From Clostridium sp. CAG:793 (lineage in GTDB: Bacteria > Bacillota > Clostridia > TANB77 > CAG-508), in contig HF993646.1 of assembly GCA_000433915.1 (NCBI GenBank), positions 133,357-197,356 of the forward strand: a stretch of DNA of 64,000 nt, written 5' to 3'. The notes beneath the pieces were generated by a model. The model was not told the origin of the DNA. It worked only from the letters and a program-made list of their open reading frames with translations, and did not search any database. Below, piece after piece: positions 28,642-63,201 of this stretch (the first letter of the stretch is position 1; each line of letters opens with the position of its first letter). The position numbers and the translations under genes were made by a program.

Positions 28642-29891
28642 TATCCAATTACCTCTTGTATTGATTCTTTTACAATATTTAAACCTTTTAATAATAATTC
28701 ATCTTCAATTACTAATGATGGCATTATTTTTAGAACAGAGTCATAGCTTCCTGCAAGTTCAATTATTAGTTTCTTTTCAAAACATTTATCTAATACTGCC
28801 CTTGCTAGTTTTCCATCATTAAATTCTATTCCCCATGATAGACCTATTCCTCTAATTTCCATTTTGCCTTTTAGTAAAGGTTTAATCTCTTTATCTAGAT
28901 ATTCTTTTACGATTTTCTCTTTTCTTCTTACTTGTGCTGGTATGTCTTGCTCAACAGTCATTTCAAGAGCAGCTAGTCCTGCTACCATTGAAAGCTGGCA
29001 TCCTCTAAATGTTCCATTATGTTCTCCTGGTTTGAATACATCAAGTTCTTTTTTAAATAGTGTTACTGCAAATGGTATGCCATATCCCCCTATTGATTTT
29101 GACATGCATACTATATCAGGTACAATGTCAGCTCTTTCAAATGAGAAGAAAGTACCACTTCTTGAGCATCCTATTTGTACTTCATCACAAATAAGTAGGA
29201 TATCATATTTATCGCATAAAGCTCGTAAATCTTTTAAAAATTCTTTGCTAAATACGTGTATTCCACCTTCTTGCTGAACAGTTTCTATTATTATTGCTGC
29301 TGGTTTTTCATATCCAGAATGATCATCACTTAATAATTGTTCCATGTATGCAATAGAGTCAAAATTTCCACCCATTGAATATGGTGCTGGAATGTGTACT
29401 GTGTAATTAAGTGGAACTCCTGCAGCTTTACGAGCAGCTGATTCTGTTGTTAAAGCTAAAGCTCCTAATGTCATTCCATGGAATGCTCCTGTAAATGCCC
29501 ATATATATGGCCTTTGCTTTACTTTACGTGCCAATTTTAATGCAAGCTCTATAGAATTTGTTCCTGTTGGACCAGGAAATGCAATTTTATAGTCTAGTTT
29601 TCTTGGCTTTAATATTTTCTCTTCAAAATAATTTATAAAATTTTCTTTTGGAACTGTATACATATCAAGTGCATGTACAATTCCATCGCTTTCTAAATAT
29701 TTTATTAATTTTTCTTTGATATAATCAGGATTGTGTCCATAATTTAATGCTCCTGCTCCATCAAAAAAATCTATATATTCATTGCCTTCTGTATCTTTAT
29801 AAATAGAGCCTTTAGCAGATACAAATTCAACAGGCCATTTTCTGCAATAACTTCTTATATTTGATTCATATTTTTCAAATGTTTCGTTCAT
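28641..29891 (-). CDS. class-III aminotransferase, diaminobutyrate-2-oxoglutarate transaminase (EctB/Dat) family
   Basis: 416 aa that tracks EctB along its length by eye: YESNIRSYCRKWPVEF, IDFFDGAGALNYGHN, PGPTGTNSIE, ICDEVQIGCSRSGTFFSFE, SKSIGGYG. Its stop overlaps the murT start (TAATG). Confidence 0.85.
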   Translation of the reverse strand: MNETFEKYESNIRSYCRKWPVEFVSAKGSIYKDTEGNEYIDFFDGAGALNYGHNPDYIKEKLIKYLESDGIVHALDMYTVPKENFINYFEEKILKPRKLDYKIAFPGPTGTNSIELALKLARKVKQRPYIWAFTGAFHGMTLGALALTTESAARKAAGVPLNYTVHIPAPYSMGGNFDSIAYMEQLLSDDHSGYEKPAAIIIETVQQEGGIHVFSKEFLKDLRALCDKYDILLICDEVQIGCSRSGTFFSFERADIVPDIVCMSKSIGGYGIPFAVTLFKKELDVFKPGEHNGTFRGCQLSMVAGLAALEMTVEQDIPAQVRRKEKIVKEYLDKEIKPLLKGKMEIRGIGLSWGIEFNDGKLARAVLDKCFEKKLIIELAGSYDSVLKIMPSLVIEDELLLKGLNIVKESIQEVIG

Positions 29892-31417: not shown

Positions 31418-31500
31418 ATGAGTCTCCTTTTATAAATTTTTGTACATTGTATCATAAAATTTATATTATTGTTTAAATTTGACCCACTAGTATAAATACA

Positions 31501-32133
31501 TTATTTTATTAAAATTACACCTTTTATTTCTGAATTTAAAAGATTTATAAAATTTCTAGCATCTTGCTCTGTTCCAACTATACTTCCATAATGTATTGGA
31601 ACTGCTATTTTAGGCTTTATTTCATTTATTAGTTGTGCAGCTTCTTTAAAGTCCATTGTGTATGTTCCACCAACCGGAACAAAAGCTACATCACATTTTA
31701 CTTTTCTATTTTCATCAGTTATATCTGTATCTCCTGCAACATAATATTTAACATTATTTATTGTAATAATATACCCTAACCAGTTATTTTCCTTTGGGTG
31801 GAATTTTTTATTTATATTGTATGCAGGTATAGTATTAAAATTAATTCCTTGCGTTTCATATTCTTTATTTGGTTCTGCTACAATTATTGCATTTTTATTT
31901 ATTCCTTTTTTTAATAATTTTTTTAATAAATCTTTAGATATTACAATAGTTGTGTCTTCTTTTATAACTTTGTCTATATCTTCTTCTGAATAATGGTCGT
32001 AATGATCATGTGTTATAAAAATAATATCCGCATCATTATAGTTTTTGTTTATTTTAAATGGATCTATGTAGATTACTTTTTCTTTATTAATTCTTATACT
32101 ACTATGGCATAAAACTTCTATGTTTTCTAACAT
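31501..32133 (-). CDS. MBL-fold metallo-hydrolase
   Basis: ITHDHYDHY metal-binding motif. 210 aa with AAGGAGAG SD. Confidence 0.85.
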   Translation of the reverse strand: MLENIEVLCHSSIRINKEKVIYIDPFKINKNYNDADIIFITHDHYDHYSEEDIDKVIKEDTTIVISKDLLKKLLKKGINKNAIIVAEPNKEYETQGINFNTIPAYNINKKFHPKENNWLGYIITINNVKYYVAGDTDITDENRKVKCDVAFVPVGGTYTMDFKEAAQLINEIKPKIAVPIHYGSIVGTEQDARNFINLLNSEIKGVILIK

Positions 32134-58555: not shown

Positions 58556-60514
58556 TTATGCTTCACCTGTTAGTTGTTTTATTTGGTCACGTATTTCAGC
58601 TGCTTTTTCAAATTCAAGATTTTGCGCATATTTAAGCATTTCCTCTGTTAATCTGTTTACAGCATCTTCAACTGTTTCGCCTTTCTTAATATTTAGTTCC
58701 TCTTGATTGTCTGATACTTGATATGTCGCTTTTATTGTCTCTCTGATTGCTTTTTTTATTGTTGTTGGAGTAATATTATGTTCTGCATTATACTCTTGCT
58801 GGATTTTTCTTCTTCTGTTTGTTTCTGTAATAGCTTTGTCCATTGATTCAGTTAATTCATCAGCATACATTATAACTTTTCCATCTGTATTTCTTGCTGC
58901 ACGCCCTATTGTTTGTATTAATGATCTTTCTGAACGTAAAAATCCTTCTTTATCCGCATCTAATATTGCAACTAATGATACCTCTGGTATGTCCAATCCC
59001 TCTCTTAATAGGTTGATTCCTACTAAGACATCGAATTTGCCCATACGTAAATCTCTTATTATTTCCATTCTTTCTAATGCTTTTATATCAGAGTGCATAT
59101 ATCGTACTTTTATATCTAATCCTGTTAGATATTTTGTTAAATCTTCTGCCATCTTTTTAGTTAAAGTTGTTACTAAAATTCTTTCATTTCTTTCCGTTCT
59201 CTCACGAATCTGTTTTATTAAATCATCTACTTGATTTTCTACTGGTCTAACTTCGATTTTTGGATCAAGTAATCCTGTTGGTCTAATTATTTGTTCAACT
59301 ACTCTTTCTTTAGAATGTTCTTTTTCATAATCTCCAGGTGTAGCACTTACGAATACTACTTGATTTATTCTTTCCTCAAATTCTTCAAATTTTAAAGGTC
59401 TATTATCAAATGCTGATGGTAGTCTAAATCCGTAATTTACAAGTGTTTCTTTCCTTGCTCTATCTCCATTGTACATAGCTCTTACTTGTGGAATAGTTGC
59501 ATGTGATTCATCTATTAATAATAGGAAATCTTTTGGAAAATAATCGAATAATGTAAATGGTGCACTTCCTGGTTCTCTTCCGCTTATATGTCTTGAATAG
59601 TTCTCAATTCCTTGGCAAAATCCCGTTTCTTTCATCATTTCCAAGTCAAAATTTGTTCTTTCTTCTATTCTCTGAGCTTCTAGCAATTTTCCATTATCTT
59701 TGAAGTATTTTACTCTTTCTTTAAGCTCCTCTTGTATCGTAGTTATTGCTCTTTCCATTTTATCAGCGGTTGTTACATAATGTGAATTAGGGAATATCAT
59801 TACATGATTTCTACTTCCTTCAACCTTTCCTGTAAGAGCATTTATGCTATCTATCTTTTCTATTTCATCTCCCCAAAAGCTAACTCTCACAGCAGTTTCA
59901 CTTTCGTCAGATGGATAGATTTCAACTACATCTCCTTTTGCTCTAAAAGTTCCTCTCTTGAAATCAAGCTCATTTCGTGTGTATTGCAAACTTATTAACT
60001 TTTTTAAAAGCTCATTTCTGTCTTTTTGCATTCCTGGTCTTAATGATATAATCATATTTTCATAGTCAATTGGGTCTCCTAAACCGTATATACATGACAC
60101 AGATGCAACTACTATTACGTCTCTAGTTTCAAATAGTGATGCTGTCGCTGAATGTCTTAATTTATCAATCTCATCATTAATTGATGCATCTTTTTCTATA
60201 TATGTATCTGATGATGGAACATAGGCTTCCGGTTGGTAATAGTCGTAATAAGATACAAAGTATTCAACTCTATTCTCTGGGAAAAATTCTTTAAATTCTG
60301 AATATAGCTGTCCTGCTAATGTTTTGTTGTGTGCTAAAACAAGAGTTGGTCTTTGCGTTTTTTCTATTATATTTGCCATTGTAAATGTCTTACCAGAACC
60401 AGTAACACCTAAAAGTGTCTGAAACTTTTTTCCATCTTCAATTCCTTTACTCAAATATTCTATTGCCTGAGGTTGGTCGCCTGTTGGCTTATATTCTGAA
60501 TGTAATTTAAACAT
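58556..60514 (-). CDS. uvrB: excinuclease ABC subunit B
   Basis: 652 aa with helicase motifs ([12 protein letters not shown]) and a C-terminal UVR domain ([11 protein letters not shown]). Confidence 0.97.
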
Positions 60515-60537
60515 TTTTCCTCCCCTTTATGATATAT

Positions 60538-60753
60538 CTAAGATTTATTGTACTCAACACATTTCTCTTCTAATAATTTAAAATTACAACATCTTTTCCT
60601 TATATTTTCCGGTAATTTTCCATTAGTATATAATTGATATAGTTTGAGCGATTTACTTTTTATTTGTTTATAGTTTGCATTTAACCATTCTAGTTGTTCT
60701 CTTAATAATTTTTGGTACTTTAATTCTGCAATAGTCTGTATTAACTCTAACAA
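60538..60753 (-). CDS. doubtful 71-codon ORF upstream of uvrB
   Basis: The only start is a TTG without an SD, and there is no internal Met. It may be non-coding leader or a gene remnant. Confidence 0.25.
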   Translation of the reverse strand: MLELIQTIAELKYQKLLREQLEWLNANYKQIKSKSLKLYQLYTNGKLPENIRKRCCNFKLLEEKCVEYNKS

Positions 60754-60826
60754 TTTTTAAATTTATAATCAATATATTTTACCTTCATAATTTTTAATTA
60801 TATATTAAAGTTTATAAAAATACAAT

Positions 60827-60859
60827 AATATAAAAGGATTAGAGTATAATCTCTAATCC
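60827..60859 (-). terminator. intrinsic terminator downstream of the 36-nt repeat array
   Basis: GGATTAGAG, a 6-nt loop, CTCTAATCC (9 perfect bp), then UUUUAUAUU on the minus strand. Confidence 0.75.
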
Positions 60860-60873
60860 CAAACTTTTTCAAA

Positions 60874-60981
60874 TTCCAATTTAATGGCTGGAAACACCGC
60901 TTTTTTTAGTTCCAATTCAATGGCTGGATTCACCGCTTTTTTCAGTTCCAATTTAGTGGCTGGATTCACCAACTTTTTTGC
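60874..60981. repeat. 3 x 36-bp head-to-tail tandem repeat
   Basis: Units at 60874..60909, 60910..60945 and 60946..60981. Consensus TTCCAATTYAATGGCTGGAWWCACCGCTTTTTTNAG, with a few substitutions per unit. Confidence 0.95.
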
Positions 60982-61480
60982 TATTTCTAGCAATAATATT
61001 ATATGCTAATTATATAAATTTATTGCTTTCTGTATTATAATATAACATAATTTTGGGTAATAATCAATATTTTTTGAAAAATTTTAGTAAAAAAATGACA
61101 TTAGAAGTAGTAGAATAAAAGGGGATGTTTAAAAACACAAATACCTACTTCCAATGTCGATTATATTATAACAACTGATTATGAATTTTTTGTGAATGTT
61201 TTATATTTTTTGGTTGTTTTATATTGCTTTTCCATTTACATATAGTTTATATCCATGTCAGATTCTATATAACCACCATGAGTTGCATCTAGTTCTCTTG
61301 CTGATGCACTTCCTGTTGTGATAATTTTTGAATCACTTGATGTACTTGAAGAATCTTGTATTCCTTAATTATTGTTTGATGTTTGACTTGTATTCATATT
61401 TTTATATAATACTAATCCTCCTGCTAGTTTTCTTTATTTTTTCGTTTTTATTTTAATATTTAAACATTAAAATAAGCTTA

Positions 61481-61515
61481 AAAAAATAAAAAACTTGGTA
61501 TTATTTTTTACCAAG
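61481..61515 (-). terminator. intrinsic terminator of mutL
   Basis: CTTGGTA, a 9-nt loop, TACCAAG, overlapping the last mutL codons, then a long U-run on the minus strand. Confidence 0.75.
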
Positions 61516-63201
61516 TTTACCTTCTATAAATTCTTTTGATATTTTTATTGTTGTAGGTCTTCCATGTGGACATGTGTATGGGTTATTTAAAGTAAGTAAA
61601 TTTTGTATCAAACTATCAACTTCAGTTCGTGATAAATCCATATTTGCTTTTACTGCTGCTTTACATGCAACTGTTGCGATAAATCTTTCTTCAACATCTT
61701 TTATTGATGTTCTTCCATCTGAAATCATTTCATCTAATGTATCTAAAAATACATTTTTAGTTTTAGATTTATATTCCAAATCTGGAATTGAATTTACTTT
61801 TATTGTATTATCTCCAAATAATTCTACATCAAATCCTGTATTTTCAATTAAGTCCTTATTTTCTTCAACAAATTTGTACTCTCTATATGGTAATGTTATT
61901 ATATCTGGTACTAATAACATTTGACTATCATGCTTAATTTTGTTTTTGTAATGTTCTTTTATCTGTTCGTATAAAAGTCTTTCATGAGCGGCATGTTGAT
62001 CTATAAGATATAATTCATTTTTTATTTCTACAACTATATAAGTTTTGAACAAAATTCCTATATATCTGTATTCTACTTTTCTTTTTTCTTCTCTTCTAAT
62101 TAATGTACTTTCTTGATTTTTTTTAGTAAATCCCGCTTCATCTGTCAAAAATTCATATTCATTTTTTATATATTCATTATTTTCTTTTTCTTCTTCATGA
62201 TTTCCTAGAAATTCTGCTGTTAGCATCGCTTTTTTTATCGCATGATATATGATTCTACATATCATGCTTTCATCTTTAAATCTAACTTCTATTTTACTAG
62301 GATGTACATTCACATCATAAAAATTTGCAGGCATTTCAATTTCTAATACAAATAGTCCATATTTTCCTATACCAGTTGCGCCTTTGAATGCTTGATCAGC
62401 ACTTGATGTTAAGGCTGCATTTTTTATGTATCTATGGTTTAGAAAAAATATCTGGCTCTTTCTATTTTCTCGTGCAACCATTGTATTTCCTATTATTCCA
62501 GTTACATGAATGCCCTGCTCTTCATAATCAACTAGAACTAAATTTTCTTTTATTTCTTTGCCAAACATTTTGTAAATTACATCATTTATATTTCCATTGC
62601 CATTTGAATCAAATATTACTTTGTCATTATTAATTAATCTAAATGATATTTGAGGATTTGATAATGAAGCATTTTGTATCCATTCTTTTATGTATCGTGT
62701 TTCTGTTGCATCATTTTTTAAGAATTTATATCTAACAGGCACATTATAGAAAAGATTTTCTACGATTATTGTAGTTCCTGCCTGAGCTCCGCATTCTTCT
62801 ATCTCTTCAATATCTCCTGCCTGAACTACCATTTTATTTCCTAGCATGTCGTCTTGTTTTCTTGAAATCATTGTAAGTCTTGACACTGCTGCAATACTTG
62901 CCAAAGCTTCTCCTCTAAAACCCATCGTGTATGTATGATCAAGGTCTTCAACTTTTCTTATTTTACTCGTTGCATGTCTTTCTATTGATAGTTCCATATC
63001 ATCTTTGGCAATCCCTTTTCCATTGTCAGTTACTTTTATAAATGTTTTTCCACCATTTTTTATTTCAACTATTATTCGTGTTGCTTCTGCATCTATTGCA
63101 TTGTCTACAAGCTCTTTTACTGCATTTGCTGGTCTTTCTACAACTTCACCTGCTGCCATTTGGTTAATAGTTAAATCATCTAATAATACAATTTGTCCCA
63201 T
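61501..63201 (-). CDS. mutL: DNA mismatch repair protein MutL
   Basis: 566 aa with a GHKL ATPase N-terminus (AAGEVVERPANAVKELVDNAIDA, DNGKGI, GFRGEAL) and a C-terminal dimerisation domain. Confidence 0.95.
   Translation of the reverse strand: MGQIVLLDDLTINQMAAGEVVERPANAVKELVDNAIDAEATRIIVEIKNGGKTFIKVTDNGKGIAKDDMELSIERHATSKIRKVEDLDHTYTMGFRGEALASIAAVSRLTMISRKQDDMLGNKMVVQAGDIEEIEECGAQAGTTIIVENLFYNVPVRYKFLKNDATETRYIKEWIQNASLSNPQISFRLINNDKVIFDSNGNGNINDVIYKMFGKEIKENLVLVDYEEQGIHVTGIIGNTMVARENRKSQIFFLNHRYIKNAALTSSADQAFKGATGIGKYGLFVLEIEMPANFYDVNVHPSKIEVRFKDESMICRIIYHAIKKAMLTAEFLGNHEEEKENNEYIKNEYEFLTDEAGFTKKNQESTLIRREEKRKVEYRYIGILFKTYIVVEIKNELYLIDQHAAHERLLYEQIKEHYKNKIKHDSQMLLVPDIITLPYREYKFVEENKDLIENTGFDVELFGDNTIKVNSIPDLEYKSKTKNVFLDTLDEMISDGRTSIKDVEERFIATVACKAAVKANMDLSRTEVDSLIQNLLTLNNPYTCPHGRPTTIKISKEFIEGKLGKK

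What the first reader, a model, noticed from the sequence alone, without database searches (positions are those of the whole stretch)
60827..61067. Promoter-to-terminator unit containing three tandem 36-nt modules: candidate modular sRNA upstream of uvrB
On the minus strand the elements line up as a self-contained transcription unit of about 200 nt:
- TTGATT-17-TGtTATATT promoter (61067..61039).
- A 7-bp hairpin, GCAATAA/TTATTGC.
- Three head-to-tail 36-nt repeats (60981..60874).
- A 9-bp perfect hairpin terminator with a U-tract (60859..60827).

Each module reads (C/G)UNAAAAA(A/G)(GCG/UUG)GUG(AA/UU)UCCAGCCA(U/C)U(G/A)AAUUGGAA. It can form a short UCCAG/UUGGA stem and presents a GGA triplet after an A-rich spacer. 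That repetitive layout is reminiscent of protein-titrating sRNAs.

The repeat period is a multiple of 3, and one frame is open across it (..AKKLVNPATKLE LKKAVNPAIELE LKKAVFPAIKLE FEKVWD*). Its stop lies in the terminator stem. However, the only possible start is a TTG without an SD, so I favour a non-coding RNA. It is not a CRISPR array because there are no spacers.
Basis: partly seen in the sequence, partly recalled or inferred. Interest (0 to 1): 0.6.

Follow-up and report, generated by a model that had tools for sequence, protein, structure and literature searches.

The report
Antitoxin RNA array, toxin gene deleted
The three 36-nt repeats are the RNA-antitoxin half (ToxI) of a well-known ToxIN toxin-antitoxin cassette whose toxin gene was wrecked by a deletion, so this is an ordinary, decaying copy of a known system and not a new kind of small RNA.

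Summary
Window 60871-60978 (minus strand) holds three head-to-tail 36-nt units, with a sigma-70-like promoter, a leader hairpin and a strong terminator.

It is a ToxI-type antitoxin RNA array of a type III toxin-antitoxin (ToxIN/AbiQ) cassette.
- In related genomes the same promoter-leader-repeats-terminator block is followed by a 165-170-aa ToxN gene (Pfam PF13958 E 6e-50; PDB 4ATO E 2.6e-24).
- In the window, toxN keeps 15 N-terminal codons and its last 60-70 codons. A 272-nt deletion between two GACTATTG direct repeats removed the catalytic core and shifted the frame.
- The genome holds no other ToxN.
- Same-species metagenome contigs carry other toxN-killing deletions at this site. One of them has only two repeats.

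Across 27 related loci the repeat period is 34-38 nt, so the array does not code for a peptide. The units share a covarying hairpin and a 3-bp pseudoknot. Named ToxIN loci of B. thuringiensis, L. lactis and F. polymorphum plasmids show the same design.

It missed the toxin remnant, and the CsrA/Hfq idea fails.

This scan has met ToxIN cassettes and orphan ToxI arrays many times on other DNA.

The parts
61039..61067 (-). Candidate promoter P1 of the cassette: TTGATT, 17-nt spacer, TG-extended TATATT
   Evidence: Consensus scan. The block aligns with the promoters of intact cassettes L005, L006 and L007. No transcript data.
60998..61003 (-). Second candidate -10 box (TATAAT), inside the conserved motif CATATAATATTATT. 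In the diverged cassette L021 this motif is the -10 of a TTGACA-17-TATAAT promoter
   Evidence: Read from the sequences. The -35 here is poor. Which promoter is used is not known.
60978..61026 (-). 5' leader: hairpin A (GCAATAA 61026-61020 with TTATTGC 60996-60990), overlapping hairpin B (UUGCUA-GAAA-UAGCAA, 60993-60978)
   Evidence: Hairpin A is in the minimum-free-energy fold. The leader is conserved in L005, L007, L008, L010 and L012, with different loop sequences in hairpin B. Its function is unknown.
60943..60978 (-). ToxI-like unit R1 (36 nt)
   Evidence: Covariance-model hit, 54.2 bits.
60907..60942 (-). ToxI-like unit R2 (36 nt)
   Evidence: Covariance-model hit, 60.1 bits.
60871..60906 (-). 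ToxI-like unit R3 (36 nt). GAAAAAG follows at 60870-60864 and supplies the A-run that closes the last unit
   Evidence: Covariance-model hit, 57.6 bits; sequence.
60825..60860 (-). Intrinsic terminator between the array and the toxin gene: 10-bp stem, 6-nt loop, T-run
   Evidence: It aligns with the terminators of intact cassettes.
60728..60786 (-). toxN 5' remnant: weak SD GAAGGT (60786-60781), TTG start (60772-60770) and 15 codons MIINLKIVRVNTDYC. It ends in the deletion junction GACTATTG (60736-60729)
60538..60727 (-). toxN 3' remnant in another frame (..AELKYQKLLREQLEWLN..RCCNFKLLEEKCVEYNKS*). It lies 23 nt from the uvrB start codon at 60514
   Evidence: PF13958 positions 98-159, E 8.6e-12; PADLOC AbiQ, E 1.2e-11.

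Best explanation
The locus is a decayed ToxIN (type III toxin-antitoxin / AbiQ-like abortive-infection) cassette, and the three 36-nt modules are its ToxI antitoxin RNA array.

How an intact cassette works (established for the family):
- One promoter transcribes the array.
- A leaky terminator lets a minority of transcripts continue into toxN.
- The ToxN endoribonuclease cuts the precursor in the A-run between units.
- Each freed unit folds as a pseudoknot, bridges two ToxN molecules and blocks their active sites.

What is shown here:
- A 272-nt deletion between two 8-bp direct repeats (GACTATTG) has inactivated toxN. It removed codons 16 to about 106, including the region homologous to the catalytic Lys33/Thr52/Ser53/Lys55 of E. 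coli ToxN, and it shifted the frame.
- The genome has no other ToxN.

What is inferred:
- The array is most likely still transcribed as an unprocessed RNA. Its length would be about 205 nt from promoter P1, or about 165 nt from the second candidate -10.
- With no partner left to neutralise, it is probably a recent relic on its way to loss.
- The cassette is a mobile 0.8-kb unit that landed in front of uvrB.
For: The downstream gene is ToxN:
- In relatives the same promoter-leader-repeats-terminator block (81-89% DNA identity) is followed by a 163-170-aa ORF.
- That ORF matches PF13958 ToxN_toxin at E 6.4e-50 over the full profile and PADLOC AbiQ at 5e-37. Its best PDB matches are 4ATO (ToxN of B. 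thuringiensis, 2.6e-24), 2XD0, 7D8O and 4GLK (AbiQ).
- Plasmid homologues are annotated 'type III toxin-antitoxin system ToxN/AbiQ family toxin'.

The window copy is broken:
- The window aligns to the first 15 codons and to the last 60-70 codons of these genes. About 272 nt are missing in between.
- A same-species contig (L062, 99% identical flanks) still has the missing piece and shows GACTATTG at both ends of it.
- A whole-genome search finds no other ToxN. The only other match, at 16 bits, lies in an MBL-fold hydrolase gene.

The repeats are ToxI-like:
- 27 of the 41 ToxN loci examined carry an upstream array of about 3.2 copies, with a period of 34-38 nt.
- The units share an A-run, GCGGUG, a 4-5-bp hairpin and a 3-bp pseudoknot (GGY with RCC).
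- Compensatory changes occur in the hairpin (UCCA/UGGA, CCCA/UGGG, UCCG/CGGA, CCUC/GAGG, CUCC/GGAG, GCCU/AGGC) and in the pseudoknot (GGU:GCC, GGU:ACC, GGC:GCC, AGC:GCU).
- The same design is present upstream of annotated ToxN genes on B. thuringiensis (34 nt x 3.1), L. lactis pCV56A (36 nt x 3.1) and F. polymorphum (37 nt x 3.4) plasmids.

Fit to the published definition:
- The layout (promoter, tandem repeats, terminator, toxin) matches the published criteria for type III loci (PMC3401426, PMC5086642, PMC8860590).
- The A6 run fits the A/AAAA specificity reported for ToxN_Bt (PMC5086642).

Decay and mobility:
- Three further same-species alleles carry other toxN-inactivating deletions. One has only two repeats.
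- The cassette sits at different chromosomal sites in other genomes.
- Its non-coding part is more similar across families (86/84/81% in G006/G058/G047) than uvrB is (81/74/74%).
Against: - Promoter use, RNA ends and read-through are inferred.
- Rfam's ToxI model RF02519 does not hit the array. That model recognises only the Bacillus-type array; it also misses the intact relatives and the L. lactis and F. polymorphum arrays.
- Within the close family, covariation is modest. Two of the 7 pairs show double changes, and the control with partners slid by -1 column scores nearly as high on the covariation measure. The wider covariation comes from a hand-fitted alignment.
- The three units are nearly intact (54-60 bits against a maximum of 64). 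This could mean recent decay or continued selection, and the data cannot tell which.
Confidence: 0.92

Rival explanations
1. The array is an orphan ToxI that selection keeps after the toxin was lost. It could act as trans-acting immunity against homologous ToxN toxins brought in by mobile elements (anti-addiction), or as a promoter and leader that now helps to drive uvrB.
For: - All three units, the promoter and the terminator are well preserved while toxN was hit.
- Three same-species alleles keep the array although toxN is gone.
- ToxN cassettes are very common in this order: 109 of 301 genomes, with up to 11 copies in one genome. Incoming cognate toxins are therefore plausible.
- The toxN remnant ends 23 nt before the uvrB start codon.
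- Earlier notes of this scan describe orphan ToxI arrays in front of housekeeping genes. These are leads, not evidence.
Against: - The flanks of the same-species contigs are 98-99% identical. Preservation of the array (2 differences in 240 nt) is what neutrality predicts.
- One allele has already lost a repeat, and another shows unrelated sequence where the array should be, at its contig end.
- Among relatives, shrunken single-unit arrays mostly go with broken toxN, which points to joint decay.
- A strong terminator stands between the promoter and uvrB.
Confidence: 0.15
2. The repeats encode a 46-aa repeat peptide (MLEIAKKLVNPATKLELKKAVNPAIELELKKAVFPAIKLEFEKVWD).
For: The frame is open across the array, and the period is a multiple of 3 in this copy.
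Against: - 17 of 27 homologous arrays have periods of 34, 35, 37 or 38 nt. A repeat peptide cannot be conserved across them.
- The start is TTG with no SD.
- There is no Pfam match.
- Variation follows base-pairing, not codons.
Confidence: 0.01
3. The RNA is a CsrA- or Hfq-titrating sRNA that displays GGA motifs.
For: Each unit has a GGA after an A-rich stretch.
Against: - The GGA is base-paired with UCC in the conserved hairpin.
- In homologues it is replaced together with its partner by GGG, GAGG, GGAG or AGGC.
- No Rfam CsrB/RsmY-type match lies in the region.
- The linked gene in relatives is ToxN, the known protein partner of such arrays.
Confidence: 0.02
4. The repeats act at the DNA level, as iterons, regulator-binding sites or a neutral VNTR with no RNA role.
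For: - The copy number varies between strains (3 and 2).
- The array lies upstream of a DNA-repair gene.
Against: - Orientation and position are fixed relative to the promoter, the terminator and toxN in dozens of loci.
- Compensatory changes indicate an RNA structure.
- The homology is to arrays of experimentally characterised RNA antitoxins.
Confidence: 0.02

Closest known systems
ToxIN of Bacillus thuringiensis pAW63 (ToxI_Bt 34 nt x 2.9; ToxN_Bt; PDB 4ATO; Rfam RF02519)
   Same: - ToxN_Bt is the best solved-structure match of the relatives' ToxN (E 2.6e-24).
- The layout is the same: promoter, about 3 tandem units, terminator, toxin.
- A B. thuringiensis plasmid array (AAAAUUGGUGUAGCCUUACCGUAGUAGGCACAAA) has the same design as the units here: A-run, GGUG, stem, ACC, loop, stem.
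- The A-run fits the reported A/AAAA cleavage specificity (PMC5086642).
   Different: - The unit is 36 nt, not 34, and the stem and loop sequences differ.
- The Rfam model built on the Bacillus type gives no hit here.
- The protein is only about 36% identical.
- The cassette is chromosomal, in an uncultured small-genome gut Clostridia lineage.
- The toxin gene is deleted in this copy.
- A conserved 5' leader hairpin precedes the array.
ToxIN of Pectobacterium atrosepticum pECA1039 (ToxI 36 nt x 5.5; PDB 2XD0/2XDB/2XDD)
   Same: - It is the archetype of the architecture and mechanism.
- The unit length is the same, 36 nt.
- ToxN is homologous (E 3.9e-20).
   Different: - It has 5.5 repeats against 3.
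- Its cleavage site is AA/AU.
- The RNA sequences are unrelated.
- It is plasmid-borne in a proteobacterium.
AbiQ/antiQ of Lactococcus lactis (pSRQ900; PDB 4GLK) and the ToxIN locus of L. lactis pCV56A
   Same: - The pCV56A array (36 nt x 3.1, AAAAGCGGUGAAUCUCCACCAUCAAGUGAGAAUCAA) shares the AAAAGCGGUGAAUC 5' half almost letter for letter with the window's unit.
- PADLOC files the relatives' toxin as AbiQ.
   Different: - The stem sequence differs (UCUC/GAGA against UCCA/UGGA).
- The toxin is 43% identical.
- The lactococcal loci are intact and plasmid-borne.
Intact same-family cassettes in related gut Clostridia genomes (L005/G006, L006/G058, L007/G047)
   Same: - Promoter, leader, three 36-nt units and terminator are 81-86% identical in DNA.
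- These are the direct intact counterparts of the window's locus.
   Different: - They keep a full 167-174-aa toxN.
- They sit at other chromosomal sites.

Membership tests
Type III toxin-antitoxin locus, ToxIN family (criteria of Blower 2012 PMC3401426, Goeders 2016 PMC5086642, Manikandan 2022 PMC8860590) | Promoter with -35 and -10 elements upstream of the array | tested here: met
   TTGATT-17-TG-TATATT at 61067-61039, aligned with the promoters of intact relatives. This is a consensus match only; no transcription start site data.
Type III toxin-antitoxin locus, ToxIN family | [quoted passage not shown] | tested here: met
   3.1 copies of 36 nt; three covariance-model hits of 54-60 bits.
Type III toxin-antitoxin locus, ToxIN family | Hairpin terminator between the repeats and the toxin gene | tested here: met
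   10-bp stem plus T-run at 60860-60825.
Type III toxin-antitoxin locus, ToxIN family | Intact ToxN-family ORF (PF13958) directly downstream on the same strand | tested here: not met
   Only remnants are left: 15 N-terminal codons and, in another frame, a fragment matching PF13958 positions 98-159. A 272-nt internal deletion lies between them. The criterion is met in relatives. The window therefore holds a relic of a ToxIN locus, not a working one.
ToxI antitoxin RNA | Each unit folds as a pseudoknot | tested here: inconclusive
   The proposed hairpin (15-18 with 29-32) and 3-bp pseudoknot (9-11 with 19-21) are paired in 97.7% of cells, and 2 pairs show double changes. Many further compensatory changes appear across diverged and named loci in a hand-fitted alignment. 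No tertiary structure was solved or modelled.
ToxI antitoxin RNA | A-rich toxin cleavage site between the units | tested here: met
   An A5-A7 run separates all units here and in all 27 arrays. This matches the A/AAAA and A/AAA specificities reported for ToxN_Bt and AbiQ (PMC5086642). Cleavage itself was not tested.
ToxI antitoxin RNA | Match to the Rfam model RF02519 (ToxI) | tested here: not met
   No hit at the locus. The model scores only the B. thuringiensis-type array (59, 47 and 39 bits). It also misses the intact relative L005 and the L. lactis and F. polymorphum arrays, so it is too narrow to decide membership.
ToxI antitoxin RNA | Neutralises its cognate ToxN and is processed by it | not testable with these tools
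   This needs co-expression and cleavage assays.
CsrB/RsmZ-type protein-titrating sRNA | Many conserved single-stranded GGA motifs, typically in hairpin loops | tested here: not met
   The GGA is the paired 3' arm of the stem and is not conserved as GGA in homologues. No Rfam match.

The most novel reading that the evidence does not exclude
The toxin-less ToxI array is not a mere relic. Selection keeps it as a stand-alone RNA, either to disarm homologous ToxN toxins arriving on mobile elements or phages, or as the promoter and leader now feeding uvrB. The repeated, independent loss of toxN in this species would then mark domestication of the antitoxin half.
Probability: 0.12. Interest if true: 0.45.

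Novelty: new member of a known kind. Interest (0 to 1): 0.2.

Why it matters
[quoted passage not shown] Rfam's ToxI model also misses this class, so such loci go unannotated or are misread as new sRNAs, peptides or VNTRs.
- **Abundance.** ToxIN cassettes are very common in this order of small-genome gut Clostridia: 109 of 301 genomes, with up to 11 copies per genome.
- **Turnover.** At this one site, four alleles of one species are all toxin-dead, by at least two independent deletions. This is a small, clean example of toxin-first decay of a toxin-antitoxin module.

None of this changes what is known about how ToxIN works.

Tried and rejected
- **Rfam.** A scan of window 60000-62000 at E up to 10 found nothing at the locus. 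RF02519 run over the whole genome gave only chance hits elsewhere.
- **Peptide reading.** There is no Pfam hit for the 46-aa ORF or for the 34-aa N-terminal junk ORF. The period varies from 34 to 38 nt in homologues.
- **Second ToxN.** A weak PF13958 match (16 bits, below the cut-off) at window 31474-31809 lies inside an MBL-fold hydrolase-like ORF, so it is chance.
- **Other array copies.** A weak covariance-model hit at window 29361-29419 (11 bits, E 0.19, with a long insertion) was taken as chance.
- **Empty site.** Comparing the regions upstream of uvrB in five relatives failed. Only uvrB itself aligns, because synteny upstream is not conserved.
- **MAFFT alignment.** The alignment of the repeat units (A2) put the 3' arm out of register for the 34-35-nt units. 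I replaced it with a covariance-model alignment (A5) and a hand-fitted one.
- **Published ToxI sequences.** The supplementary tables of Blower 2012 are not held. I read arrays from annotated plasmids instead. I did not fetch the C. botulinum plasmid hits.

Full report
**1.
- On the minus strand, Tandem Repeats Finder reports a 36-nt period with 3.1 copies and 86% matches at window 60865-60979.
- The 25-nt core GGTGWWTCCAGCCAYTRAATTGGAA occurs three times, against 0.00 expected in shuffles. It occurs nowhere else in the 1.26-Mb, 99%-complete genome.
- The promoter-like site TTGATT-17-TATATT with an upstream TG (61067-61039) and a 10-bp terminator hairpin with a T-run (60860-60825) are both found by the scans.
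- The promoter is only a consensus match in AT-rich DNA: 13 sites were found against 9.2 expected. Terminator-like sites are rare: 3 found against 0.3 expected.
- The leader hairpin GCAATAA/TTATTGC (61026-60990) is part of the minimum-free-energy fold. The whole 216-nt stretch folds better than shuffles (z = -3.0).
- The 46-codon open frame with a TTG start is there as described.

**2. What follows the terminator decides the case.**
- A DNA search of 60 related genomes found the whole block (promoter, leader, repeats, terminator) at 81-89% identity. The hits are a same-genus genome (G006) and genomes of other families of the order (G058, G047, G010, G015, G041).
- In these loci the terminator is followed, after an SD, by a 163-174-aa ORF beginning MIINLKIV(R/K)(I/V)D..YCDYLRKFDNKV.
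- That protein matches Pfam PF13958 (ToxN_toxin) at E 6.4e-50 over the full profile and PADLOC AbiQ at 5e-37.
- Its best solved structures are ToxN of B. thuringiensis (4ATO, 2.6e-24), ToxN of Pectobacterium (2XD0), ToxN of E. coli (7D8O) and AbiQ (4GLK).
- Plasmid homologues are annotated as type III toxin-antitoxin system ToxN/AbiQ family toxins.
- Promoter, short tandem repeats, Rho-independent terminator, then a ToxN gene on one strand is the published definition of a type III toxin-antitoxin locus (PMC3401426, PMC5086642, PMC8860590).

**3. The window's toxN is broken.**
- Only about 310 nt separate the terminator from uvrB.
- The alignment with intact relatives shows the first 15 codons (MIINLKIVRVNTDYC, TTG start at 60772). 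It then jumps to ..AELKYQKLLREQLEWLNANYKQIKSKSLKLYQLYTNGKLPENIRKRCCNFKLLEEKCVEYNKS*, in another frame.
- The C-terminal piece still hits PF13958 positions 98-159 (E 8.6e-12).
- A same-species metagenome contig (L062, 99.2% identical over uvrB and the toxN 3' end) retains the missing 272 nt. It shows GACTATTG at both ends of that piece. The window's allele therefore arose by deletion between two 8-bp direct repeats, with the junction at 60736-60729.
- The lost segment contains RPF..FAPLSSPKPK. This aligns with the catalytic Lys33/Thr52/Ser53/Lys55 region of ToxN (alignment; residues from PMC8860590).
- 272 is not a multiple of 3, so the rest of the gene is out of frame.
- The genome has no other ToxN. 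The only other PF13958 match scores 16 bits and lies within an MBL-fold hydrolase-like gene.

**4. The locus is decaying in the species.** Four alleles were seen at the same site next to uvrB.
- **Window allele:** three units, terminator and toxN start codon present, and the 272-nt internal deletion.
- **L062:** the central part of toxN is intact. A 37-nt deletion between two TTAAAAATT direct repeats removed the SD and the first codons. Unrelated sequence replaces the 5' arm of the terminator in the last 55 nt of this low-coverage contig.
- **L063:** three units, differing from the window at 2 of 240 positions. Only the last 83 nt of toxN are left (junction AAAAATTATG|ATGGAAAATT).
- **L064:** the same large deletion as L063, and only two units.

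The window and L062 alleles each keep what the other lacks, so at least two inactivations were independent. No intact allele was seen, but only four contigs were available.

**5. The repeats are RNA, not a peptide, and are homologous to characterised ToxI arrays.**
- ToxN is present in 109 of 301 genomes sampled from the order, with up to 11 matches in one genome.
- Of the 41 ToxN-bearing loci in hand, 27 have an upstream array of about 3.2 copies. The period is 36 nt in 10 of them, 35 in 8, 34 in 4, 37 in 4 and 38 in 1. A conserved repeat peptide is therefore impossible.
- All units read A5-7, GCGGUG, 2-3 nt, a 5' stem arm, RCC, a 6-9-nt loop, a 3' stem arm, then ACUU.
- I built a covariance model from the 36-nt class. 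It found 63 strong units in 26 sources, including the window's three at 54-60 bits.
- On that alignment, the hairpin (columns 15-18 with 29-32) plus a 3-bp pseudoknot (9-11 with 19-21) is paired in 97.7% of cells. Double changes occur at two hairpin pairs (UA to CG in 5 sequences, AU to GC in 1). At the pseudoknot pair 11-19, UG becomes UA or CG.
- Sliding the partners by one column lowers pairing to 43-70%.
- Within this close family the covariation is modest, and the -1 slide scores nearly as well on the covariation measure. I therefore rate the fold as supported, not proven.
- A hand-fitted comparison across diverged classes adds many compensatory stems (UCCG/CGGA, CCCA/UGGG, UUCC/GGAA, CCUC/GAGG, UCUC/GAGG, CUCC/GGAG). 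It also adds the pseudoknot variants GGC:GCC and AGC:GCU.
- The same design is found upstream of annotated ToxN genes on named plasmids:
  - B. thuringiensis: 34 nt x 3.1, stem GCCU/AGGC.
  - L. lactis pCV56A: 36 nt x 3.1, stem UCUC/GAGA, with a 5' half nearly identical to the window's unit.
  - F. polymorphum: 37 nt x 3.4.
- Rfam's ToxI model RF02519 recognises only the Bacillus array (59, 47 and 39 bits). It misses all the others, including the intact same-genus locus.

**6. Mobility.**
- In G006, G058 and G047 the cassette lies on contigs other than the one holding uvrB, next to unrelated genes such as rpsB in G058.
- Its non-coding part is 86/84/81% identical to the window, while uvrB is 81/74/74% identical.
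- This fits horizontal spread of a 0.8-kb unit.
- Homology to the other cassettes begins about 20-30 nt upstream of the -35 box (about 61090) and ends at the toxN stop codon (60538).

**7. Mechanism.**
- *Established for the family (cited papers):* the array is transcribed. Terminator read-through gives low toxN expression. ToxN cuts the precursor in the A-rich linker. Single pseudoknotted units bridge ToxN monomers into a closed, inactive complex. The antitoxin has the shorter half-life, so the toxin acts when antitoxin supply falls, as proposed for phage infection (abortive infection).
- *Shown here:* the array, the terminator and the toxin homology; the deletion that removes the catalytic core; the absence of any other ToxN.
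- *Inferred:* the array is probably still made as an unprocessed RNA of about 165-205 nt and has nothing to neutralise.
- Which of two candidate -10 boxes is used is unknown. One is TATATT at 61044-61039. The other is TATAAT at 61003-60998, inside a motif that serves as the -10 box in the diverged cassette L021.
- The role of the conserved 5' leader hairpins is also unknown.

**8. Rivals.**
- **Domesticated orphan antitoxin, or a promoter-leader for uvrB.** This is not excluded, and I give it 0.12-0.15. The good state of the array is what neutrality predicts at 98-99% strain identity. One allele has already lost a unit. Among relatives, single-unit arrays mostly accompany broken toxN genes (L008, L009, L015, L041).
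- **Peptide, CsrA/Hfq sponge and DNA-iteron readings.** These are rejected on the period variation, the paired and covarying GGA, and the fixed linkage to ToxN.

**9. Comparison, novelty and limits.**
- This is a new, decayed member of the ToxIN family. It belongs to a ToxI sequence class closest to the L. lactis pCV56A and B. thuringiensis types.
- This scan has already reported complete homologous cassettes, single-unit cassettes and orphan ToxI arrays on other genomes. I reached my reading before those look-ups, and they did not change it.

Noticed in passing
window 61255-61396, minus strand: A small ORF lies after a GGAGG, between mutL and the cassette. It is interrupted by an in-frame TAA: MNTSQTSNNN*GIQDSSSTSSDSKIITTGSASARELDATHGGYIESDMDINYM*. 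It may be a broken small gene or just noise.
   Followed up: no
L014 (G042:C1) about 1500-1560; L011 (G039:C138) about 1500-1640: L014 holds a solitary ToxI unit (63 bits) with a terminator, directly after a HIT-family gene and before a sigma-factor-like gene, with no toxN. L011 holds a cassette leader with one degenerate unit and no toxN. Both are further relics of the same cassette family.
   Followed up: partly
L008, L009, L015, L041 against the three-unit loci: Single-unit arrays of this family mostly accompany truncated, frameshifted or stop-containing toxN genes. L010 and L051 appear intact with a single unit. Nineteen loci with three units have full-length toxN. The array seems to shrink together with toxin decay.
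   Followed up: partly
order-wide search, e.g. G329 and G224: ToxN (PF13958) is present in 109 of 301 sampled genomes of this small-genome order. One genome has 11 matches and another has 8, which is unusually dense for genomes of 1-2 Mb.
   Followed up: no
G130:C11, G317:C32, G187:C3, G191:C6, G160:C11; L065 589-1461: Some ToxN matches lie in open frames of 371-393 aa. The F. polymorphum plasmid ToxN is annotated as a 290-aa CDS. These may be ToxN proteins with long C-terminal extensions or fusions.
   Followed up: no
L056 (G006) and L057 (G010), uvrB: In these two same-genus genomes (69-75% complete) the uvrB reading frame is split or lacks its N-terminus. This could be a frameshift or an assembly error.
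   Followed up: no
L005 954-1181, minus strand: A T-box leader (95 bits, just above the gathering score of 93) lies next to the intact cassette of G006. It is only a neighbour and is unrelated to the finding.
   Followed up: no
window 60529-60557, minus strand: A promoter-like site TTGAGT-17-TATCAT lies inside the 3' end of the toxN remnant, just upstream of the uvrB SD. It could be the present uvrB promoter. No Gram-positive LexA (Cheo) box was noticed by eye upstream of uvrB.
   Followed up: no
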